Assembly: GCF_004010195.1 (NCBI RefSeq)
Contig: NC_057719.1
Coordinates: forward strand, 49,553,578 to 49,573,577
DNA length: 20,000 nucleotides
From: Chiloscyllium plagiosum
Taxonomy: Eukaryota
Reading direction: 5' to 3'
Part shown: piece after piece, positions 1-18,358 of the stretch
Layout: each line of letters opens with the position of its first letter
How positions within the stretch are numbered: position 1 is the stretch's first letter
Notes under the pieces: model-generated
What the model was told of the DNA's origin: nothing
Databases searched by the model: none
The model's input: only the letters and a program-made list of their open reading frames with translations
Position numbers and translations under genes: made by a program

Positions 1-682
1 TCGCTCCTCTACAGATCCCTGTGATGACTGTTCCAGTTCATCAGTGGGCACATTGGGATCACTGCTGGCACCTTGAAAGAATTTCCGGAGTCTCATTCGT
101 CTGACGAACTCCTCCGTGTCTGCTGCCAGAACCAACGGGTCCATTTTGGTGGTGGGGCAGAAGTTGAGACCCCTGTTCAGGACTTCAATCTCTTCCGGTC
201 GAAGGGTGTGGTCCAATAAGTTGATAATAGACTTTCCCACAGTGATGTTATCCACTGTGGTGCCAGGGTGGGCTTTGCTATTACTGGTGAGAATGCCAGG
301 TTTCTCCAGCTTTTTGTTCTTTGTTTGTATGTACGTGGTGTAGTTTTGTCGCCTTGTCTGTTTGGCAATGTCGTGTAATTGTACTGATGTATCCTGAGTG
401 TGGACTGAGAGTGTGGACTCCATCTGAATTTCAAGGTTGTGGCGCCTGCTGTAGAGTTGGTGCATGAGATGATTGAGGAGTTTACGAGAAGTGCGATGGC
501 AAAGTCTCTGCATAATCTGTGTTGTAGGTCGACTTGAGTGGGTTCGTGATCTGTCATCCTTTTGGGATCTTTCCTGCTTGCCTGCATTCCTGTAGAAACT
601 TGATGTCTGTGTCGATATGTGCGATCTTCTTGGAGATCCTCTCCACTTTAAGCCGGCAATTAGTGGTGTCGATAGTAGTCAT
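1..682 (-). pseudogene. Disrupted N-terminal region of a PLE RT/GIY-YIG polyprotein
   Basis: In-frame TGA after IPKG, plus at least one frameshift between the two recognisable motif blocks. Confidence 0.75.
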
Positions 683-805: not shown

Positions 806-840
806 CACCTGATGAAGGAGCGATGCTCTGAAAGCTAGTG
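806..840 (+). ncRNA. Minimal type-I hammerhead ribozyme motif (PLE pLTR), core intact
   Basis: cac-CTGATGA-a-GGAGC-gat-GCTCT-GAAA-GC-TA-gtg. Stem I is cac/gtg, stem II is 5 bp, stem III is reduced to the palindrome AGCT, and the cleavage triplet is CUA. Confidence 0.8.
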
Positions 841-1745: not shown

Positions 1746-1750
1746 AGACC

Positions 1751-1950
1751 TGAGTAATGCTGAAAAATGACACATTTTGCCAAAGCATTTTGTCTTGTAC
1801 TCATCAGAACAATTTGTAGGAATACTAACTCAAGGAAACAAACAACATTTATGCTGCATTAAAGGAAAGCCTGATTGGTAAAGGTGAAATCTATTGATAA
1901 TGATTACTCAAGTTATTGTCCTGGGAAATGAACTAGCAAATGTCTGTTAT
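1751..1950. mobile_element. Left-arm fragment of the hammerhead-bearing inverted-repeat family also at 15909-16335
   Basis: tgagtaatgctgaaaaatgacacattttgccaaagcattttgtcttgtactcatcag matches 15910-15965 directly and 16281-16334 in reverse complement. Decayed minus-strand hammerhead CTGATGA-gtacaagac-AAAA-tgctt at ~1781-1807. Confidence 0.65.
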
Positions 1951-2730
1951 CTTTTAGTTGATTTGTTGCACTGATTTAGTAGCAGGGTTCCACAGCTTAA
2001 ATTAAGCAGAATGCGCCAACAGCAGCAGACAGTTTATTTTTTGAAATGAAAACACATGTAGTTTGATAGGTCATTGCTAATTACTCTCACTCATCATATT
2101 GGTTCTTGCTTTGTAGTTGCACACTAATGTAACAATTTCTGTACGATAAGACAAAGAAATGTAGACCTATCATTTTACATGGAATAGTGATTCAAATAGA
2201 TGAATCTACAGAATACAGTTCGCTCCTAATTTAAGTTTGATTTTACCAGCAAAGATTTTAATTATTGAGTTATTTGAATTTAGCAATGTGAATAATTCGA
2301 TACCTCCAGCTATGAGAATACCATCAGTTGAATTGGGCATCAGTAATATATAGTTGTAGTCATTATCCTTCCGAAAGCAGTGTTTGAAATTCTCCAAAAT
2401 ATTCTATACTATTATGGGCTCTCTACTGTGGTCATGGCTATACTTTTATGCAACATGTCCACTTATCAATACAGTTGCTTTTGGATTATAAGGGAATAAT
2501 CATTGTTTCTTTTGATTTGTTCACAGGATGTGGTTATCGCTGTCTAGGCCAGCCTTTATTGCCTATCTCAAATTGTTAAAAATTGGCCACATTCTAGGTC
2601 TGGAGACACATATAGGCCAAATCAAGCAAAAATGGCTGATTTCCTTCCCTAAAGGGCATTTGTGAACAAATGGGTTTTTATGACCAGATTAGAGTGGTGC
2701 TGGAAAAAGGCAGCATCCACGGAGCAGTAA

Positions 2731-2764
2731 AATCGACGTTTTGGGCCAAAACCCTTCATCAGGA
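2731..2764 (-). ncRNA. Hammerhead motif, decayed (GAAA>AAAA)
   Basis: Reverse complement reads CTGATGA-a-GGGT-tttg-GCCC-AAAA-CG-TC-gatt. Confidence 0.6.
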
Positions 2765-2788
2765 AGGGCTGCAGTGATGAAGAGCTGA

Positions 2789-2823
2789 TTGCTGATGAAG
2801 GGTTTTTGCCTGAAACATCAATT
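2789..2823 (+). ncRNA. Hammerhead motif, core intact, stem III palindrome mutated
   Basis: ttg-CTGATGA-a-GGGT-tttt-GCCT-GAAA-CA-TC-aat. Confidence 0.65.
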
Positions 2824-3227
2824 TTCCTGGTCCTCTGATGCTCCTGACCTACTGTGCTTTTCCAGCACCACTCTAAACTTAACTCTAATCTCCAGTGTCT
2901 GCAGTGCCACAATTGACTGTGATTGCATGCTCATTAGATCAGCTCTTTATTCCAGATTTTTGCTGAAATCAAACTTCATTCTCTTTTCTGATGTGATTCA
3001 AACTCATGTTCCCAATAGCATTGGCTCTGCATTGCCACCCAACTGCTTCCCATTCCCTATCATCTCCAACTCTTTCACAGTCCTCTGTTTAGAGTTTGAG
3101 AGTATAATTTGGCAGTTGGTTTATGTAGTTTAAATGAAATGGAGAAATTCTTTGCACATACACATTTTCTTTTGCAATTTTCACCCTGCCTAACCGCACA
3201 GTTTGGTTTCTTTTTGGTTGAACATTT

Positions 3228-3553
3228 GGTGGCACAGTGGCTCAGTGGTTAGCATGGCTGCCTCACAGCGCCAGGGACCTAGGTTCGATTCCAGCCTCAG
3301 GTGACTGTCTGTGTGGAGTTTGCACATTCTCCCCGCGTCTGCGTGGGTTTCCTCCAGGTGCTCTGGTTTCCTCTCACCATCCAAAGATGTGCAGGTCCCG
3401 TGAATTGACCATACTAAATTGCCGGTAGTGTTACGTGCATTAGTCAGGGGTAAATATAGCGGAATGGGTCTGGGTGGGTTACTCTTCGGAGGGTCGGTGT
3501 GGACTTGTTGGGCCAAAGGGCCTGTTTTTGTACTGTAGGGAATCTAATCTAAT
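3228..3553 (+). mobile_element. HE1-type V-SINE (tRNA-derived), full length
   Basis: A-box region gtggctcagtggttagc, B-box ggttcgattcc, V-domain tgtgtggagtttgcacattctccccgcgtctgcgtgggtttcctcc, CR1-like tail ending in (aatct)n. Two more copies occur in the window. Confidence 0.92.
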
Positions 3554-3597: not shown

Positions 3598-4380
3598 ACA
3601 AAACGCTAAACCAAAGTGGATATGAAGAGGAGTGATCAAAAAGTTGATCAGTGGTGGGTTTTATGAAGTGTTTGTGGGACATGATTGTCCAGTGGTTATT
3701 ATCACTAAACTATTAATCCTGAGTCCCAGGTAATATTCTGGGTACCCAGGTTTGAATTACATCATGGCAGATAGTGAAATTTCAGTTCAATAGAACACTG
3801 GAATTAGAAGTCTAATAATGCCCACGAATCCATTGTCAATTTGTCAGGAAAAACCTATCTGGTTCAATAATGTCCTTTTAGGAAAAGAAACTGACACTTT
3901 ACCTGGTAGCACATGTGACTCCAGAACCATAACAATGTGATTGACTCTGACTCTAAGCTACCCTCTGGGCAATGAATGCTGGCCTCGCCAGTGAGGCACA
4001 CATCCCATGAATGATTTTTTTTAAAGGAGTAAAAGCATGACTTTGAGGAATAAATTCCAATGTGAGTGTTCTGAGCAACTGAAAGAATAGCCACAGATGA
4101 TAGGTTGTATGAAGTTATTTTCAATGTTGGCAGCTAGTATATAAAGATTTGGCATTGGTTGGCAAAGGATACAGATGTGAGGAGTGGTATGCCTATAAAG
4201 GCATTTAAATGCAAAATAAGAATTTTTAACCTGGAACTGGGAACAAATGTCAGCAAGAACGGATGAGAAATGCACAGCAGTGTTTTGGATAGGCTGGAGT
4301 TTAAAAGATGAAAGGCTACCCATGAATACAAAAGAATAGTGGAGTTTGGAGTTGATCAGAGCATGAATGATGAGCTATAT
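3598..4380 (-). mobile_element. L2-clade LINE 3' fragment, highly decayed, interrupted by the SINE at 3688-4015
   Basis: Minus-strand frames give IHALINSKLHYS..KLQPIQNTAVH..SVLADI..RLKILIL, compared with the L2 ORF2 C-terminal pattern IHAFVTSRLDY..KLQLIQNSAAR..PVLADLHW..FKIL. A 3' end remnant lies at ~3598-3680. Confidence 0.65.
3688..4015 (+). mobile_element. tRNA-derived SINE (non-HE1 family), near full length
   Basis: Head cagtggttattatcactaaacta, B-box-like ggtttgaatt, tail gctggcctcgccagtgaggcacacatcccatgaatga. Related copies at 2519-3035 (minus) and 17120-17275. Confidence 0.75.
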
Positions 4381-6890
4381 TATGGCAGTGGAAGTAGTTT
4401 TTATGATAGAGTTCACTGAATAATGAGAATTATTTTCCACTCCCAAATTATAACCACAATCTCCAATTCAATGGCTATCTTGAGCATCACTCTGGAGATC
4501 AAATTCTTAATTAATGTGCCTCAGGATTGAATTCTGACCATTTTAGTGATTGCCACCTTACTGCCATATTAGCAAGAAATAGCAATGGTGAGTGAGAAGC
4601 AACCTTTTGCCTTCTTGCTCTCAGCATATCTGGAACAATGCTTTGTAACCAAGCTTCAGGGGAATATTAGCATAAGTTACAGGCACCTTGGAGGTGTTGG
4701 GGGTCTCAAGATTTTATTTAGTAATGAGGTTCAGACCGCTGAAAACAGATTGTAAACGTTTTCATATCTGTGACAAATAGTCTGTTGTTTGGAGGGTACT
4801 ATATTAAATTCTTTATTACAGCTAAGGATGAGTACTTCTATCTGATACATTGGAAGTTGCTGTTTCAAGCCAACCTGAGTTGCGGAAAAAAATAATAGGC
4901 TATTTTTGTACCAGCCTTTAAAGATAAACTTTATACATTCTACAGAAGCATATATGTGAGTCCATGCATAACAAATAGATGAAGCTTTATATGGTTTCCT
5001 ACTTTTATGTAAAATTCATCACTGTTTTATTGCACTGGCTTTTCTATATCTAAAGTGTATTAATACCAGTTATGCTGATAAAGCCCTCAGCCTCTATGGT
5101 CCTAAATATTCTATATATCCTACATAAAAGTTTGAATTTTTAAGCGTTTCCCAGTAGATTAGGATGACAATACTGCACAAAAATGTTGCTGATAACAAAA
5201 TCCACAAATGAAGCAAGAATATTCACTGCTGACATTGAAGAATGCTCTTGTGATATGATCTATTAGTCCCAGGATTGAAGACAATCTGAAGCAGCAGTAA
5301 TAGAAATAAGATGTGTTATCTTTGGCTCATGTACAATTCAGTGAACATTATCTGTATTAGTCTTACCTTTAAAATAAAAAAACTTGCATTATTGTGTCAT
5401 CCAACTTTGTGTAATTGGTATATTTACACCTAAGAAATGAGTGTAACATCATTGCAGCTTGTGATTTCTGAACATTTTTGATATTTAAGTACACAACCTA
5501 GCATTCTGGGAGTATGTTATTGAAGATTTGTCTGCAGAATGTACAAGTCTCGATCCTTCCACATATAGATGAAAAGAACTAAACATTTTCTGGGGGAATC
5601 GCACCTTGCTCCAGTCAGCAAGCATAATTGCTAGTAAAACTGTTCAAATTTGGGAGAATTTGTTAATAAAAAGTCTTAATGACATCAACGACAAAGATTA
5701 AGCATTCCAGTCTCAGTCATTAGACTGACAACAAAATCTATTCCTTTTGGGAGATCAGGAAAATTAGAATACTGCAGTCTGACTGATGAAGAAGAATTTA
5801 TGAAGTAACAGCCAGAAAAAGTCTGTAAAAAGTTAACACTCACTATTTGCTTAACTTTGGCAATTCTTAATTATTTTTTCTACTGTTGAGATACTTACAT
5901 TGTGGACAGAATTTACAATTAAATCAAGAAAGAGCACAACTACTCTACCGGTACAGTCACCCAGTAACCAACATCAACTAAGGCAGGTCTTGCAACTCAG
6001 CTAATTTAATCCTAAAAAAGAGCTGGAAGAAACTTGTCTATGTCAAAAGCTCCAGATGAAATTAAAAAGCTGCAAAATGACCATAAAATGCCCACCCATC
6101 GGCTTTACTTTATTTTAACATCACACTGCACAGTTTTCTAATATTGTATACTTGCAACTAGATAAAGAAGCTATTAATATTACTAGAGGTAATGAGACCT
6201 CCCAAACTGAATGCATCAAGTCATCTTAAAAAGCCAGATGAAATATAGTCAACACTCATTGAGCTTCACTCATAATTGATCATGTTCAGAATTCATGTAT
6301 TTAAGAAAAGCAATCATTGCTCAATCCATTACTAGTTGGAGAGACAAGATATGTGATTGCAGTTTCATGGTGGCAGAGCTGGCAGTCAGAACAACTGGGC
6401 TTGTGATTGAATCCAATGGAAGACTTGCATCAAGATACCTTGGACCAGTCCAAAAGGTAGCATCATGGGGGAGTACTCTTACAAAGCAAATGCATGTAAA
6501 CAGTAATGCTAAGCCCTTGGAATTTGTCTACCTCTATCTGTAATTTCGCCACCATTGTTACAATGGAAAAAGGAGACAAATCTCGAAAGCATATAAACTT
6601 TTAATGTTATATGCAAGACTTGTGATGCCAGAAAATGTTAGAAGCACCTATAAAGAATGTAAAGACCAGAATGAAGGGTCAGACAGTACAAACAGCCACT
6701 TTCAAAAGCCAAATGGATACAGTGATCTAACCTGCCATAAGTGTACAAAACACAGTCACGATAACCCCTAAAAATTATTTAGGCAAGCGGTATAATCGTG
6801 ATGAGAATGGTCAGGCCATTGACACAAAAAGTGAACCAACATTCAGTGCAGTAAGCATCAAAGTATGGTACTAATAAAAGTGTTTACACT

Positions 6891-8125
6891 TGTTATGATC
6901 AGTCCCTGGGCAAAGTTATTATGGTTCCAGATGGGATACCTAAAATTATCAAGCTTTTTTTCCTTTCTTTTTCTTTCACCTCACTCTCTTTAATAGCTGC
7001 TCAGCCCCCTTGGTTGGTTACGAAAAGGTTAATGGAAAAGAATAACCATCCCCCCACACACCGCCACCATCAATGCTACCCATGCGCATGCGCACACACA
7101 CCATGGGAGCTTCCTCCCTGACAAAAATTAATTCATGTTTTAAAAGGGAGCCAATTCAACCAGACATTCTTGAGATAACAAAACAGTGAGTTTATTAATT
7201 ACAAAACGCATACATACAAATTAAAAATAAGAATTCGGTCAAAAAAAGTTAAAAGATACACAGGTCAGTCTCTGGGTCGTTTGAAGAAGCTTGGATAGTT
7301 GAGCAGTCAATTTGAGATTCTTGGCTTTGAATTAACTTTCAGGGTTGCTGACCTTCTTCTGTTTTCTTTTAAACAGTGAGACAATGCTTTACTTACAATG
7401 CAGGGTGACAGAATCTACTGGATGGTTCTTTGACTGTGATTGTCACAGCACACTAGGTCAATCATAGGTTATTACATGAGACTGTTACCACATACGACCA
7501 GCATTGAAACTCATTTTTAACCATGGTCCCTGTCTATTCTTGAAAAGGGAAAAATAAGCAAGTTGTTCACCTAGTCTATTAGATTCCCTACAGTATAGAA
7601 ACAGGCCCTTCAGCCCAACCAGTCCACACTGACTCTCCAAAGAGTAACCCACTTCCCTCTGACTAATGCACCTAACACTATGGGTAATTTAGCATAGCCA
7701 ATTCACCTGGCCTGCACATCTTTGGACTGTGGGAGGAAACCAACGCAGACACAGGCAGAATATGCAAACTGCACACAGACAGTTGCCCGAAGCTGGAATC
7801 GAACCTGGGTCCGTGGTGCTGTGAGGCTGCAGTGCTAACTGCTGAGCCATCATGCCACCCCACAGTGTTTTGTCCTATCATATGCACAGCTTAAGATTCT
7901 CACAGTGGTTTGCAGTTCGGTTTTTTTAAAAATTAGATTTATCCTTTGGAATTTTCCTTAATACCTTCAGCTGTGACATTCCAGAGTTCTTCCTCAGACA
8001 GCCACTGAGCTTAACGCCCATAGTCACCTTTTGGCTGTATCTCCACTTGTACATAAAAAACAAAGTTGGAATGAAAACGTAGATATGTCTGAGCTGATCT
8101 GGATTTATGATCCATGATCATGACA
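6891..8125. mobile_element. Solo LTR (~950 bp net of the inserted SINE) with 4-bp target-site duplication CACT
   Basis: Starts TGTTATGATC and ends GATCATGACA (9/10 inverted match, TG...CA). Flanked by CACT at 6887-6890 and 8126-8129. Removing it rejoins the Gypsy-like sequence. Confidence 0.8.
7579..7860 (-). mobile_element. HE1-type V-SINE inserted in the solo LTR
   Basis: Reverse complement of the 3228-3553 element with small internal deletions. B-box ggttcgattcc retained. Confidence 0.9.
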
Positions 8126-9400: not shown

Positions 9401-9497
9401 GTAATTTGTCTATGTTAGATAATAATGCTGCCGCTATGATAGTTGAGAGTGTGGTGCTGGGAAAGCACAGCAGGTCAGGCAGCAACCGAGGAGCAGG

Positions 9498-9535
9498 GAA
9501 TCGACGTTTCCGGCATAAGCCCTTCATCAGGAATG
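9498..9535 (-). ncRNA. Hammerhead motif in the left pLTR
   Basis: Reverse complement reads attc-CTGATGA-a-GGGC-ttat-GCCG-GAAA-CG-TC-gatt. GUC triplet, ACGT palindrome, and a G.G mismatch at the base of stem II. Confidence 0.75.
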
Positions 9536-11241
9536 AGGCTTGTGGGCTGGGCGGTGGGGAGAGAACTGAGAGATAAATGGGAGGTGTGGTGTGTTTGGGG
9601 GAAAGGTAGCTGAGAATTCGATAGGGAGAAGGTGATGGGTTGGAGAGGAGGGTGGAGTGGATAGATGGGAAGGTGATGGACAGGTCAGGAGAGTGGTGCC
9701 GAGTTGGAGGTTTGATATTGGGATAATGTGGAGGGAGGGGAACTGAGGAAACTGGTGAAATCCACATTGATCCTGTGTGGTTGCAGGGTCCCAAGGTGGA
9801 AGATGAGGCGTTCTTCCTCCAGGCGTCGGGTGGTAAGGGTTTGGCGGTGGAGGAGGCCCAGGACCTGCATGTCCTTGGCAGAGTGGGAGAGGGAGTTGAA
9901 ATGTTCAGCCATGTGGAGATGGGGTTGGTTGGTGCTGGTGTCTCAGAGATGTTTTCTGAAACGATCTGCAAGTAGGCATCCTGTCTCCCCAATTTAGAGG
10001 AGACCACATCAGGTTTTACGGATACAGTTAGGTGACATTGGTAGAGGGCGCAGGTTTTGCACTTGCACCTGATTTTTCCCTCCCTCCCCTTCCTGGACCT
10101 CTCCATCTCCATCTCCGTCGACCGACTAACCACGGACATCTACTACAAGCCCATCGACTCTCACAGCTACCTAGACTACACCTCCTCCCACCCTACCTCC
10201 TGTAAAAACACCATCCCTTATTTCCAATTCCTCTGCCTCCACCTCATCTGTTCCCAGATTGACCAATTCCACCTTAGAAAATCCCAGATGGCCTCCTTCT
10301 TCCAAAATCGCAATTTCCCTTCCCACATGGTTGACAATGCCTTCTAACACATCTCTTCCATTTCCCGCACCACTGCCCTTGAGCTCCATCCCTCCCAATG
10401 CAACAAGGACAGAACCCCCTTCCACCCCACCAACTTCTGCATATATCGCATCATCCTCTGTCACTTCCGCCACCTACAAACAGACCCCACCACCAGATAT
10501 ATTTTTTGCTCCCCACCTCTATCAGCGTTCCAGAGAGACCATTCCCTCCTCAACTCCCTTGTCAGATCCAGGCTTCCCCACAACTAGCGCCCCCCAACCA
10601 CCCCACCAGCTCACACCCCACTCCCGGCATCTTTCCCCGCCACTGCAGGATGTGCAAAACCTGCGCCCACACCATCCAAGGTGCCAAAGGATCCTCCCAC
10701 ATCTGACAGAAATTTACCGGTACCTCTACCAATGTCATCTCTGTATCCATTGCACCTGATGTGATCTCCTCTACTTCAGGGAAACAGAATGCCTTCTTGC
10801 AAATCATTTCAGCGAACATCTCTGAGACACCTGCACGAACTAACCCCACCGCCCCGTGGCTGAACACTTCAACTCCCCCGTCCCACTCCGCCAAGGACAT
10901 GCAGGTCTTGGGCCTCCTCCATCGCCAAACCATTACCACCCGATGCCTGGAGGAAGAACGCCTCATCTTCCAACTTGGGACCCTGCAACCAAGCGGGATC
11001 AATGTGGATTTCAACAGTTTCCTCATTTCCCTTCCCCCAAAATTATATCAGTCCCAAACCTCCAACCTGGTACCGCCCTCCTGACCTGTCCATCACCTTT
11101 CCCATCTATCTGCTCCACCCTCCTCTCCAACCTATCACCTTCTCCCTCACCTTCAACTATCTATTGCATCCTCAGCTATCTTCCTCACAATACCTACACC
11201 CTCCCCCACCCCCACCCAACTTATCTCTCAGACCCCCACAC

Positions 11242-11278
11242 ATTCCTGATGCAGGGCTTATGCCCGAAATATCGATTC
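11242..11278 (+). ncRNA. Hammerhead motif in the right pLTR, mutated core
   Basis: attc-CTGATGC-a-GGGC-ttat-GCCC-GAAA-TA-TC-gatt (A9>C, CG>TA). Confidence 0.6.
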
Positions 11279-11449
11279 TCCTGCTCCTCGGATGCTGCCT
11301 GACCTGCTGTGCTTTTTCAGTTCCACACTCTCGACTCTGATCTCCAGCATCTGCAGTCCTCACGTCCTCCTCTGCCTCTATGATAGGATCACTTAGGTAG
11401 TTATTTATACCTTTCAGAGTAGAGCCCTTTGCTGGCTTACAAAACATTA

Positions 11450-11553: not shown

Positions 11554-12439
11554 TGTGGAAAACTAATGAGCCAGTGATTGGTACCTAAGACAAGTTGAAT
11601 TTTCAAATGGGTCTCTAGTGAGAGAGATTGGGCTTGAATTTTAAAAATTGAGAAGCTCCATGAAATGACAACTTTGAAAAGTGTCATGAAAGGACAGTAA
11701 CTCAGATGGGCTTTCAAGAGCAAGCAACACTTAAAAAGGCGTCTGCTTTTCATACAGTTCTTCATTTACAATAAACTTGTAGTTTCAAAGAGAGCAGCCA
11801 TAAATGCAAGTTACTTGTTTGCACTGTAGTACATCTAATGCAGATATACAGCCTGATTCCTGATGCTGTGCAGGAACCAATATCTGGTCCTAAACCAGGG
11901 ACAGCATCCAACATTCAAAAATGCCGAGTAATCGTCTGGAATTCTTTGGTGAGCCCCCTTGTGGTAATTTAACATGACCAATTTTAGGATCATATAACCT
12001 GGATTTTGATAGCAGCAATGATGGCAAAAACTGTTAGCTTTCACTTGTTGTTACCCCATTGAAACTGACAGCAACTTCTGTTGTCCGCACATGCTGTTGG
12101 TGAGTTAATACCTGCCCAGTGAAAGTGGTGAAGCAAGTGGACAATACTTGAGCCGATCTGCCACATCAGTAGATGACTTAGAAGCAATAACACTACCAGT
12201 CCACAAAACAGGGACAGCTATATGAATTATTTCCTCCCCATTCATCCTCTCTTTTTGGCAGATACGATCCTACTACAGCCGAACCTCGATTATCCGAACG
12301 TGATGGGCGGGCACTATTTTGTTCGGATAATCGATTATTCGGTTAATTGATTAAATGCCTTTTCTCTGGGGCTTGGAGTTTTCTATTAAGTCTGTTCCCT
12401 GTTCAGATCAGGCAGCAGCAACTGCGCGTGAGTCTCCCC

Positions 12440-12570
12440 GTGCCCCCCAACCCCATCCAACACTGCTCCCTGCCCGACCATCAACTCCATCCATTACCAC
12501 CCCCGCCTGCCCCCAACCACATCCAATACTGCACCCGCCTGCCCCCAACCCCATCCAACACCGTCCCCTG
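12440..12570 (+). repeat. C-rich tandem repeat, ~30-bp unit (gcccccaaccccatccaacactgc..cc.gcc), about 4 copies
   Basis: ccccaaccccatccaacac, ccccaaccacatccaatac and ccccaaccccatccaacac recur. Confidence 0.7.
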
Positions 12571-13049
12571 ACCCCCTCACACTAACACAGTCACAGTCTC
12601 TATGACGCCCTCATACTCACCCCATCACTGTCACCCTGTCCCACTCACACTCACTCCATCATCCTTAGCCTGACGCCCCTCACACTCACTCCATCATCCT
12701 CAGCCTGTCACACTCACACTCGCTCCATCACCGTCACCGTGAACCCCTCACACACACTCCATCATCGTCTCCCTGACCCCCTTACAGTCAATCCATTATC
12801 GTCACACTTATCCCCTCACGCTCACATCATCACGGTCACCCTGACCCTCTCACATGCACTCTATCTCAATCTCACTGAACCCCTCACACTCATTACAACA
12901 CCATCAGCCTGACCCCCTCGCATTCACTCCATCACCATCACCTGGACCCCATCACACTCAATCCGCCACCATCACCCTGACTCCCACACATTCACTCCGT
13001 CACAGTGACACTGACCTCCACACACACTCACTCCATCATCCTCACCCTG
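12570..13049 (+). repeat. Degenerate minisatellite, ~30-33-bp unit (tgacccctcacactcactccatcatcctcaccc), about 15 copies, running into the gap
   Basis: cactcactccatca.c.tcaccctgac recurs throughout. Confidence 0.85.
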
Positions 13050-13359: not shown

Positions 13360-14044
13360 AACACCGTCCCCCCGCCCACACTCCCTAGCCTAGCCCCGCC
13401 CACTCCCATCCCCCCATCCATCCCCACCTCCACCCCAGCACGCCCCCACCCTCTCTTCGGGGCAGCCGGACTGGACAACGACAACAAGCCTGCTGCTGTT
13501 GCTACTGCCTTTTGGGGGGTGAGTCTCCAAATAGTGTGCGTGCACGGGCACACACACTTTTTATTGCAACTTTTTGACAGGTTCCACCTTTGCCCTGTAT
13601 AGGACAATGTTGGAAAGATTATCTGGGGAAGGAGGGTTTAGGGTGTCGAACGCTTATGTGGAACTCCAGGGAAAGTGTGGGGAGGGGGAGAGAAGGGTGG
13701 GAGGTGAGTCTTTTAGAGACGATGCCAGGACTTCTCAGCAGCACTTTTATCTCTGTAAACAAAAGACACGATCAGTGTTGGACACACGTCTTTGATGTAA
13801 TGTTTCTATAGGGACCTCGAGATCTCTTCAGATAATCTGATTTTTGGATAATTGGTATTCGAATAATCGAGGTTCCTCTGTAATATGCCATCTTTGACGA
13901 AGTGTTTCCTTTAGTTCTATTAGTATGGTATGTAATGCAATGTAAAATGTTTTATTGCAGCGTCCTATTACATTAGCATTAGTTTGAAGCTCACCACTCC
14001 TGGAGCTTTTTAGTAGCTGCAAAATCAGCAGTAGCTGACCAATT

Positions 14045-15217: not shown

Positions 15218-15793
15218 ATGCCACAACCCAAAGGACTAGCCACACTACCATACATCAGGAGCATTTCAGAACTGACAGCCAGATTACTGCAACCACTAGG
15301 ACTTATAACAGCACACAAACCAACAGCCATCCTCAGACAACAACTCACCAGAACGAAGGACCCGATACCCAGCATGAGCAAAACTAATGTAGTGTACAAA
15401 ATCCCATGCAAGGACTGCACAAAACACTATATAGGACAAACAGGAAGACAGCTAACGATCCACATCCATGAACATCAACTAGCCACGAAACGCCACGACC
15501 AGCTATCCTTAGTAGCCACACATGCAGATGACAAGCAACATGAATTCGACTGGGACAACACTACCATTATAGGACAAGCCAAACAAAGAACAGCCAGGGA
15601 ATTCCTAGAAGCATGGCACTCATCCACAAACTCCATCAACAAACACATCGACCTGGACCCAATATACCGGCCACTACAGCGGACAGCTGAAACTGACAAT
15701 CGGAAGCGGCAGGGACAGGCCACTATAAATGCCGGAGGAAACACCACAGAAGCGCTTCACAGGAGGCTCCCAAGCACTGAGGATGTCACCTAG
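15218..15793 (+). CDS. Uninterrupted 191-aa C-terminal fragment of a PLE polyprotein (GIY-YIG endonuclease); probably not expressed
   Basis: ORF track. VVY...YIG, conserved His, Glu (REFLE) and Asn (SIN). The RT part is missing, with an in-frame TGA at 15194 in the flank. Confidence 0.75.
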   Translation: MPQPKGLATLPYIRSISELTARLLQPLGLITAHKPTAILRQQLTRTKDPIPSMSKTNVVYKIPCKDCTKHYIGQTGRQLTIHIHEHQLATKRHDQLSLVATHADDKQHEFDWDNTTIIGQAKQRTAREFLEAWHSSTNSINKHIDLDPIYRPLQRTAETDNRKRQGQATINAGGNTTEALHRRLPSTEDVT

Positions 15794-15908: not shown

Positions 15909-16335
15909 TTGAATATTATTGAAAAAGACACATTTTGATTCAGTTTTTTTGTTTTGTACTCATCATGGCATTTAACAACATTTAATACTACTTGAGTGTT
16001 GCCATGGACAATGCATCAGTTAACATGATGACTGATAGTTAACTGCCAAACTTTAAAGTTAGACCATTTCTGATTTTCCAAGGCATTGCCCTGAGGAATG
16101 AGCCACGGAATACCTGTTGCCGATTTTGTTAAGTTGAAATGGAGCAATGTGTGTTCATGTTCTTTCTGTCTGTAAAGAACAGGGCCTTGTATGTTAATAT
16201 ATGTAGTTTCCAGTGCACAGTGTGCCAAACTGCAGGACCGACTGCCAATCTTAAATTGGTTGTCAGCCTAATTCAGTGTTCTGATGAATGTCAGATGAAA
16301 AGCTTCAACAAAATGTGGCTTCTAGCAATACTCAA
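15909..16335. mobile_element. Non-coding ~430-bp inverted-repeat element with a hammerhead motif in each arm
   Basis: Left ttgaatattattgaaaaagacacattttg..gtactcatca versus the reverse complement of the right arm ttgagtattgctagaagccacattttgttgaagcttttcatctgacattcatcag. A second partial copy lies at 1751-1950. Confidence 0.7.
16277..16310 (+). ncRNA. Minimal hammerhead motif with AAGCTT stem III
   Basis: tgtt-CTGATGA-AT-gtcag-AT-GAAA-AGCT-TC-aaca. Stem I tgtt/aaca is a perfect 4 bp, stem II is only 2 bp, triplet UUC. Confidence 0.6.
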
Positions 16336-16634
16336 AACTCACAATGAGGAATTTGATTTTTTTAGGATTAGTGACACTATTTACCAGTAATTATGAACTT
16401 AGCATGCTATTAAAAATCCAATTATACCTCATTCAACTTTTCTAGGGGCTTTTACAGCATAACTAGTTGTATAAAATGACATGATTTCGACTTGCTTACA
16501 GCTTGAGGGTCATCAGGGTGTCTCATGATGAAATGTGTTACTAAGTTATGGCAAATGCTTACAATTCCACCATCATTTCTCCCTGAGCTACTGTTTCAAG
16601 TTAATGATTATCAAAACTACAAAACTTTGGGCGT

Positions 16635-18063: not shown

Positions 18064-18358
18064 ATTAGATTAGATTACATTACAGTGTGGAAACAGGCCC
18101 TTCGGCCCAACAAGTCCACACCGCCCCGCCAAAGCGCAACCCACCCATACCCCTACATTAACCGCTTACCTAACACTACAGGCAATTTAGCATGGCCAAT
18201 TCACCTGACCTGCACATCTTTGGACTGTGGGAGGAAACCGGAGCACCCGGAGGAAACCCACGCAGACACAGGGAGAACATGCAAACTCCACACAGTCAGT
18301 TGTGGAGTCTCTGGCGCTGTGAGGCAGCAGTGCTAACCACTGTGCCACCGTGCCGCCC
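18064..18358 (-). mobile_element. HE1-type V-SINE lacking its B-box
   Basis: Reverse complement of 3228-3553 with (aatct)n tail at 18064-18077. The B-box segment is replaced at ~18300-18308. Confidence 0.92.

What the first reader, a model, noticed from the sequence alone, without database searches (positions are those of the whole stretch)
2685..2910. 225-bp non-coding palindrome with a hammerhead on each strand, inserted as a unit into a SINE
Seen: two outward-pointing pLTR ends of the 9443-11362 PLE family joined by a ~28-bp spacer, with no coding sequence. The flanking SINE is contiguous across it (..tttatgac|aattgac..), so it arrived as one insertion. The right arm extends ~30 bp further (ctccag..tctgcagt), the same asymmetry as in the large PLE. 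Inference: either an extreme 5'-truncated inverted PLE insertion, or a self-propagating retrozyme/MITE-like family whose RNA in either polarity folds to a rod carrying one ribozyme and its antisense, reminiscent of ambisense viroid-like RNAs.
Basis: partly seen in the sequence, partly recalled or inferred. Interest (0 to 1): 0.7.

Follow-up and report, generated by a model that had tools for sequence, protein, structure and literature searches.

The report
Fold-back stub of a Penelope retroelement
This 226-base hairpin-shaped insert in a shark-like genome is real, but it is most likely the dead end-piece left by one landing of an abundant Penelope-like jumping gene, and both of its hammerhead ribozyme motifs carry changes predicted to cripple them, so it is ordinary rather than a self-copying RNA.

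Summary
The palindrome is real (2685-2910; fold z about -8). It splits a SINE-like repeat cleanly and has no target-site duplication beyond 2-3 bp. Both arms are 3' ends of a Penelope-like element (PLE), about 80% identical to the big element at 9443-11371; one arm has a 31-nt tail. Both hammerheads are decayed: the minus-strand one has A at the general base G12, the plus-strand one lost its dimer palindrome and most of stem I, and the rod hides stem II.

The exact junction sits on a contig of single-copy depth, arm depth is thousands of times centre depth, and other fold-back junctions differ. In metagenome contigs, 17 unrelated loci share the layout with 17 different centres; one pair is near-identical, which counts against my reading. 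The insertion is also present in two related species.

Best reading: a one-off, extremely 5'-truncated head-to-head PLE insertion, a layout already in print (Arkhipova 2013, Cervera 2014, Craig 2021). This scan has noted like stubs on other pieces of the same genome. Retrozyme or viroid-like readings fail their defining tests.

The parts
2520..2684 (-). 3' part of the host SINE-like repeat (left flank of the insert)
   Evidence: Aligns to second copy 3843-4011, score 113.5 vs best of 300 shuffles 71.5; family label recalled, not tested
2686..2765 (-). Short inverted PLE end (pLTR head) without tail, with a 12-nt internal deletion
   Evidence: 81% to big element arm over 58 nt
2731..2765 (-). 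Decayed minimal type I hammerhead: C3 at 2762, G12 replaced by A at 2742 (CpG-type change), palindromic 15.1-16.1 4-mer kept, only 2 stem I pairs
   Evidence: most family RNA reads carry the G12 base (147 of 208 and 69 of 102)
2766..2788 (.). Locus-specific centre; 17 of 23 nt covered by exact 8-mers of the element's own ends, or in part decayed inward continuation of both arms
   Evidence: 85 of 20000 shuffles at k=8; 796 at k=7; no cover at k=9; single-copy contig 2728-2819 with 0 differences
2787..2824 (+). Decayed minimal type I hammerhead: C3 at 2792, G12-A14 kept, predicted cut after 2819; changes at 2791, 2811, 2817, 2820 break the 1.1-2.1 pair, the dimer palindrome and turn 10.1-11.1 into a wobble
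   Evidence: 2820 is G in most family depth
2789..2879 (+). Long PLE end (sense arm), part mirrored by the short arm
2880..2910 (+). 31-nt PLE 'tail', present on this arm only
   Evidence: matches 11330-11357 of the big element
2911..3070 (-). 5' part of the host SINE-like repeat (right flank)
   Evidence: Aligns to second copy 3674-3842, score 89.5 vs best of 300 shuffles 53
9443..11371 (+). Longer 5'-truncated, inverted PLE insertion of a sister subfamily: broken RT-thumb and GIY-YIG region at 10081-11062, inverted partial copy at about 9443-10027, 15-bp TSD (9428-9442 / 11372-11386)
3674..4011 (+). Second, uninterrupted copy of the host repeat, used as empty-site reference

Best explanation
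The insert is two head-to-head copies of the 3' end of a Penelope-like retroelement, most likely left by a single insertion event and now predicted to be inert. SHOWN: arm identity to a PLE that encodes RT and GIY-YIG remains, a one-sided 31-nt tail, a clean split of the host repeat, a single-copy junction, decayed hammerhead cores and presence in three species. INFERRED: the PLE protein cut both strands of the target and primed reverse transcription from both DNA ends, once at the outer start site (arm with tail) and once at the inner site 31 nt further in (arm without tail). Both cDNAs stopped just past the hammerhead core, so the template was uncut RNA. Their ends were then joined head to head through short microhomologies, leaving a locus-specific centre. 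I put this two-end priming at about 60:40 over fold-back of one cDNA. The hammerheads are passengers of the pLTR.
For: 1. Geometry matches published PLE insertion units: inverted 5'-truncated copy, 30-40 bp tail on one end, TSD variable or absent (PMC8557442; PMC3846280, which names a 31-bp tail). Dual minimal hammerheads on opposite strands were noted in PMC4209133. The Anolis PLE protein nicks and extends both strands, starts at two sites that bound the tail, and uses uncut RNA (PMC11167929).
2. Relatives of the big element's protein carry RVT_1 (2 of 4 proteins above cut-off) and GIY-YIG (2 of 4, just below cut-off) and align back to 10081-11062.
3. In run X3 a 92-nt contig spans 2728-2819 with 0 differences at depth 18.4, against flank 17.5-17.8. 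Summed depth is 72.8 at 2780 against 4.4e5 and 1.2e6 in the adjoining arm bins, a 6,000- to 16,000-fold gap. Contigs leaving the arms at 2765 (416) and 2788 (146) agree only 0.34 and 0.36. Run X16 shows other fold-back joints (2704 to 2788; 2708 to 2793) near single-copy depth.
4. 21 of 31 scanned loci have the same layout with an intact core; they collapse to 17 loci with 17 different centres. 10 of 13 loci in the three multi-member arm families have one long and one short arm.
5. Both arms share one non-majority base (2751/2803), which fits one template.
6. G12A slows hammerheads more than 500-fold (minimal) to about a million-fold (full-length) (PMC2553840).
Against: No genome-wide count in the host was possible. 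Summed contig depth is not copy number, and depth at 2780 is 4 times the flank, not 1. 100 joints and 76 junction rows were not shown. Two metagenome loci with different flanks (L011, L018) share a near-identical centre and arm variants (4 mismatches and 2 gaps in 144 columns), so whole stubs may sometimes be copied. L019/L027 and L023 differ by one centre base. The metagenome loci are other families (no blastn hit to the window palindrome at E<=1e-3), so they are analogues only. The shared base 2751/2803 fits fold-back copying or gene conversion equally well. The two-end joining step has not been shown in any paper I read.
Confidence: 0.8

Rival explanations
1. Same kind of one-off PLE stub, but the inverted arm is made by fold-back or self-priming: one cDNA (or an antisense template) snaps back near the hammerhead head and is copied, then the hairpin is resolved into the target.
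For: Arkhipova 2013 reads palindromes at inverted junctions as self-priming. Both arms share the non-majority base 2751/2803. The inner centre pairs weakly in the predicted fold. Several metagenome centres are themselves small hairpins.
Against: It does not by itself explain why the short arm stops at a recurrent point one tail-length inside the long arm (10 of 13 loci; 31 nt here), which the two mapped start sites do.
Confidence: 0.3
2. A non-autonomous palindromic PLE derivative with a fixed centre that is copied as a unit (MITE-like; Chompy-like, name recalled).
For: L011 and L018 share centre and arm variants with different flanks. Depth at 2780 is about 4 times the flank and one X3 contig aligns across the centre with gaps (table 4). 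Putatively non-autonomous PLEs exist (PMC8557442).
Against: The exact junction contig has single-copy depth; contigs leaving the arms are heterogeneous; other joints differ. 17 distinct loci give 17 centres.
Confidence: 0.1
3. A longer inverted PLE like the one at 9443-11371 inserted first, and its middle was later deleted, leaving only the two ends.
For: A long inverted copy of a sister subfamily lies in the same window. Long palindromes are deletion-prone (general knowledge). The left arm already has a 12-nt deletion.
Against: Both arms end within about 3-12 nt of the core, symmetrically. The centre holds pieces of the element's ends, not of its body. No longer allele was seen, but the centre was listed only for run X3.
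Confidence: 0.08
4. A retrozyme or ambisense viroid-like unit whose RNA self-cleaves in both polarities and replicates or circularises.
For: One hammerhead-like motif per strand and a very stable rod. Family RNA reads lie on both strands.
Against: No tandem unit and one core per strand, so no monomer can be cut out. The rod comes from perfect self-complement and removes stem II (0.94-0.98 alone, 0.000 in the whole). Both cores are damaged. 0 of 808 RNA reads are 99% or more identical to the locus, no start or end pile-ups are listed, and A>G places (29) are like those in DNA runs (24-28).
Confidence: 0.02

Closest known systems
Insertion unit of endonuclease-positive Penelope-like elements with inverted pLTR and tail (Arkhipova et al. 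2013 PMC3846280; Craig et al. 2021 PMC8557442; passages seen)
   Same: Head-to-head inverted 5'-truncated copy, one-sided tail of about 31 nt, TSD optional, microhomology junctions.
   Different: Truncation is extreme: both arms stop at the hammerhead head and no coding sequence is left.
Minimal hammerheads (min-HHR) of metazoan PLEs (Cervera and De la Pena 2014, PMC4209133; results and discussion read)
   Same: Type I core, extra base between 9 and 10.1, G10.1-C11.1, palindromic 15/16 positions, short stem I; dual motifs on opposite strands already reported at about 100-700 bp.
   Different: Cores only 29 nt apart; both copies here are decayed.
Poseidon PLE of Anolis in vitro (Frangieh et al. 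2024, PMC11167929; main text read)
   Same: Two RT start sites that bound the tail, extension of both strands, uncut RNA as template, ATT preference (ATT lies at 2912-2914, a 3-mer of no statistical weight).
   Different: That work did not show inverted joining; clade of the shark element was not placed on a tree here.
Non-LTR retrozymes (Cervera and De la Pena 2020, PMC7229834, passages; Li et al. 2026 bioRxiv 10.64898/2026.07.22.740005, part 1 of 5 and passages)
   Same: Non-coding, type I hammerhead, PLE-related.
   Different: Retrozymes are head-to-tail tandem repeats with intact ribozymes that give circular RNA; this is a single head-to-head unit.
Viroid-like RNAs with ribozymes in both polarities (e.g. 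PMC10162972, PMC7461866; search listing only)
   Same: One hammerhead motif per polarity, rod-like fold.
   Different: Genomic, linear, fixed in three species; rod arises from an inverted duplication; no circular form shown.
Chompy palindromic elements of crocodilians (recalled; PLE link recalled)
   Same: Short palindromic non-coding repeat, if my recall is right.
   Different: Not testable: the library gave only a table row with the name and no description.

Membership tests
Endonuclease-positive PLE insertion product | Arms homologous to the pLTR of an element encoding RT plus GIY-YIG | tested here: met
   About 80% identity to ends of 9443-11371; its protein relatives carry RVT_1 and GIY-YIG, the latter below Pfam cut-off. 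The window's own broken pieces gave 0 Pfam hits.
Endonuclease-positive PLE insertion product | Inverted 5'-truncated copy joined head to head | tested here: met
Endonuclease-positive PLE insertion product | 30-40 bp tail on one end only | tested here: met
   31 nt, 2880-2910
Endonuclease-positive PLE insertion product | Short target-site duplication (optional in the literature) | tested here: inconclusive
   None over 2-3 bp here; the 4-nt match belongs to the host repeat; 15 bp on the big element
Endonuclease-positive PLE insertion product | RT groups with PLE clades on a tree | not tested
   No tree built; only the thumb and endonuclease region remain in the window
PLE minimal hammerhead | Core, extra base at 9/10.1 and helix II layout | tested here: met
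   for four sites; stem I partner pairing in metagenome arms 21 of 29 vs shuffled mean 11.4, 0 of 5000 (arms not independent)
Active hammerhead at this locus | All catalytic bases plus helices I and III formable | tested here: not met
   G12 to A on minus strand; broken 15.2-16.2 and 1.1-2.1 on plus strand; stem II probability 0.000 in the rod
Active hammerhead at this locus | Self-cleavage in vitro | not testable with these tools
   needs bench assay
Non-LTR retrozyme | Two or more tandem units with same-strand intact hammerheads | tested here: not met
   One core per strand; no tandem array here among 3 found in the window
Non-LTR retrozyme / viroid-like RNA | Circular RNA and cut-site ends | tested here: inconclusive
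   No pile-ups and 0 of 808 reads at 99% or more, but only 2% of one polyA single-cell run was read
Fixed-centre non-autonomous palindromic family (MITE/Chompy-like) | Many copies with the same centre and length | tested here: not met
   Junction contig at single-copy depth; other joints differ. Test is by contigs of runs, not an assembly.

The most novel reading that the evidence does not exclude
The centre records how the telomerase-related PLE enzyme behaves at the end of its template: the 5' edge of hammerhead stem I is a programmed stop or the true RNA 5' end, the enzyme re-primes there and re-copies the last 8-12 bases (two partial repeats of the core plus a piece of the tail, joined by 2-nt overlaps), and the resulting mini-palindromes, found in sharks and unrelated animals alike, are at times re-mobilised whole as a budding non-autonomous class.
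Probability: 0.15. Interest if true: 0.5.

Novelty: new member of a known kind. Interest (0 to 1): 0.15.

Why it matters
As a single locus it matters little: it is a decayed copy of a known insertion layout. It is a caution for ribozyme and viroid-like screens, because PLE stubs give a hammerhead on each strand inside a perfect rod without being replicating RNAs. As a population these stubs are useful: their 5' ends, centres and arm-shared variants could decide between two-end priming and fold-back, an open step of PLE transposition.

Tried and rejected

Rfam found no hammerhead family; uninformative for minimal motifs. Pfam gave 0 hits on 8 open frames of the big element and 0 on the 46-aa endonuclease piece read with X at stops. 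The two viral-contig hits lack the hammerhead core. Ten of 31 loci were dropped for lacking an intact core by my pattern (L001, L002, L007, L008, L017, L022, L024, L026, L028, L030); L008, L022 and L028 look like decayed members.

A hotspot of centre lengths at 5-11 nt (8 of 17) did not survive correction (p 0.26), and the pattern only admits centres up to 30 nt. The tiling test of the centre depends on k (significant at 8, weak at 7, none at 9), and an alternative parse as decayed arm continuation fits. No RNA holder was listed by the run search. A-to-I excess was not seen, but those reads come from other copies. An assembly artefact is unlikely given the exact contig in run X3, although that run may share a study with the assembly.

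Paper searches for a described shark palindromic PLE family found none; supplements of PMC4209133 were not opened and may show such pairs. Earlier-finding look-ups by sequence and by near place returned nothing.

Full report
Observation. The palindrome is there. Arms 2712-2765 and 2789-2842 are 80% complementary over 54 nt with 23 nt between them, and a second segment extends them to 2686 and 2879. The left arm has a 12-nt deletion relative to the big element. Both strands fold to a rod of about -102 to -104 kcal/mol, z about -8, with 0 of 200 shuffles as stable. The right arm runs 31 nt beyond the mirror point, 2880-2910, and this stretch matches the end of the big element.

Insertion into the host repeat. 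A second copy of the flanking repeat lies at 3674-4011. The left flank and right flank each align to it far above 300 shuffles (113.5 vs best 71.5; 89.5 vs best 53) and meet at adjoining positions, while the insert does not align. Paralogous copies in three DNA runs skip from the left flank to the right flank. No target-site duplication longer than 2-3 bp was found; the big element has one of 15 bp with 1 mismatch and so ends at about 11371. I call the host a SINE from recall of its layout; no library test was possible.

What the arms are. They match the two ends of the big element at about 80%. The big element holds a broken protein region whose closest relatives are shark and ray proteins, best hit from Chiloscyllium punctatum at 76% identity, 28 hits among 50 candidates. 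Of 4 relatives scanned, 2 carry RVT_1 above cut-off and 2 carry GIY-YIG just below it, and they align back to 10081-11062 and, inverted, to 9646-10026. The Atlas put the piece with PF26215 clusters at 0.97, with a recognition value just under its own bar. This is the RT-thumb plus endonuclease end of a Penelope-like element. The window's own fragments gave no Pfam hit and no tree was built.

The hammerheads. All four end sites have the minimal type I layout described for PLEs (PMC4209133, parts 1-2 of 4 read). Both in the palindrome are damaged. The minus-strand site has A at G12 (2742), where most family RNA reads keep G (147 of 208 and 69 of 102); this change slows hammerheads more than 500-fold to about a million-fold (PMC2553840, passages). 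The plus-strand site keeps the core but has lost the palindromic 4-mer needed for the dimer and the first pair of stem I. Its stem II forms with probability 0.94-0.98 in the isolated arm and 0.000 in the whole insert; the minus-strand stem II is at 0.001 even alone. There is one core per strand, so no unit can be cut out at two sites.

Family or one-off. No assembly is held, so I laid 4 of 24 listed runs on 2441-3190 at 80% likeness. In run X3 a 92-nt contig covers 2728-2819 with no difference at depth 18.4, equal to the unique flanks (17.5-17.8). Summed depth at 2780 is 72.8 against 4.4e5 and 1.2e6 in the adjoining arm bins (6,000- and 16,000-fold). Contigs that leave the arms at 2765 (416) and 2788 (146) agree poorly with each other (0.34, 0.36), and their majority letters follow the PLE body. 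Run X16 shows two other fold-back joints, 2704 to 2788 and 2708 to 2793, near single-copy depth. Limits: summed depth is not copy number, 72.8 is four times the flank, and 100 joints were not shown. The insertion is old: a contig of organism B bridges the left junction (2565-2727) and one of organism C the right (2878-3190), with flanks about 3% diverged.

Analogues elsewhere. A pattern for two back-to-back cores up to 30 nt apart gave 29 metagenome and 2 viral loci. 21 of 31 have an intact core on at least one arm. Collapsing records with shared far flanks leaves 17 loci with 17 different centres of 5-29 nt. In the three multi-member arm families, 10 of 13 loci have one long and one short arm, and stem I pairs in 21 of 29 arms against 11.4 when partners are shuffled (arms are related, so this overstates significance). 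These are other families in unidentified hosts, so they show the layout is general, not what the shark family does. Against my reading, L011 and L018 have different flanks but a near-identical centre and shared arm variants, so a whole stub was probably duplicated at least once, or misassembled. A length hotspot was not shown (corrected p 0.26).

The centre. 17 of its 23 bases are covered by exact 8-mers from the element's own ends: two partial repeats of the core and a piece of the tail, overlapping by 2 nt. 85 of 20000 shuffles and 14 of 2529 window 23-mers reach this at k=8; the signal is weak at k=7 (796 of 20000) and absent at k=9. It can also be parsed as decayed inward continuation of both arms around a 9-nt loop. 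One metagenome locus, L013, has tandem restarts of the same core at its junction. This is suggestive of templated filler, no more.

RNA. Of 12,955,460 records read from one polyA single-cell run (about 2% of it), 808 lay on the stretch, all only partly, none at 99% or more, none on the unique flanks, with no start or end pile-ups. They come from other family copies on both strands. This library is a poor test for small or circular RNA.

Mechanism. Published PLE insertions often carry an inverted 5'-truncated copy and a 30-40 bp tail on one end (PMC8557442, passages; PMC3846280, passages). The purified Anolis PLE protein cuts and extends both strands, starts at two sites that bound the tail and uses uncut RNA (PMC11167929, parts 1-2 of 4). 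The insert has the orientation expected if each target end primed one cDNA, one from each start site, and the two were joined at their far ends. That joining is my inference. Fold-back self-priming, proposed in PMC3846280, gives the same orientation and explains the shared base at 2751/2803 equally well; I rank it second.

Comparison and verdict. It works like, and passes the tested features of, a PLE inverted insertion unit. It fails the tandem test for retrozymes (PMC7229834, passages; bioRxiv 10.64898/2026.07.22.740005, part 1 of 5 and passages) and the fixed-centre test for a MITE-like family. Viroid-like RNAs were seen only as a search listing. Six searches found no paper on a shark palindromic PLE family, but dual opposite-strand motifs are already in print. 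Earlier notes of this scan describe like stubs on other pieces of the same genome; they are unchecked leads, and one gave me PMC3846280. Verdict: new member of a known kind, interest 0.15.

Noticed in passing
window 1750-1811 (minus) and 16277-16334 (plus): Two solo copies of a second hammerhead-like PLE end family; their alignment starts 4 nt upstream of the core in both, echoing the truncation point of the palindrome.
   Followed up: partly
window 809-833 and 16485-16516: Further hammerhead-core pattern matches, likely ends of other PLE families; the window has 6 matches against 0.66 expected.
   Followed up: no
window 9443-11371: All four hammerhead sites of this family in the window carry at least one core or closing-pair change; the big element has a 15-bp TSD.
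   Followed up: yes
window 12271-12298 and 13858-13885: 28-nt inverted repeats 1559 nt apart enclosing 32- and 34-bp tandem arrays at 12434-13049; resembles a non-autonomous DNA transposon with an internal minisatellite (family resemblance recalled).
   Followed up: no
window 55-213 (minus) and 15371-15544 (plus): Weak tblastn matches to PLE-type proteins, probably more decayed fragments.
   Followed up: no
window 3228-3548, 7578-7860, 18081-18358: Three copies of another, younger SINE-like repeat, 82-93% alike.
   Followed up: no
L013 around 401-470: Three tandem restarts of the hammerhead core plus stem II start at the fold-back junction.
   Followed up: partly
L011 and L018: Near-identical palindrome centres with different flanks; L011 lacks a tail and sits between about 30-nt direct repeats.
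   Followed up: partly
window 4376-4452: A+T-rich 77-nt hairpin with a sub-threshold miRNA-family match.
   Followed up: no
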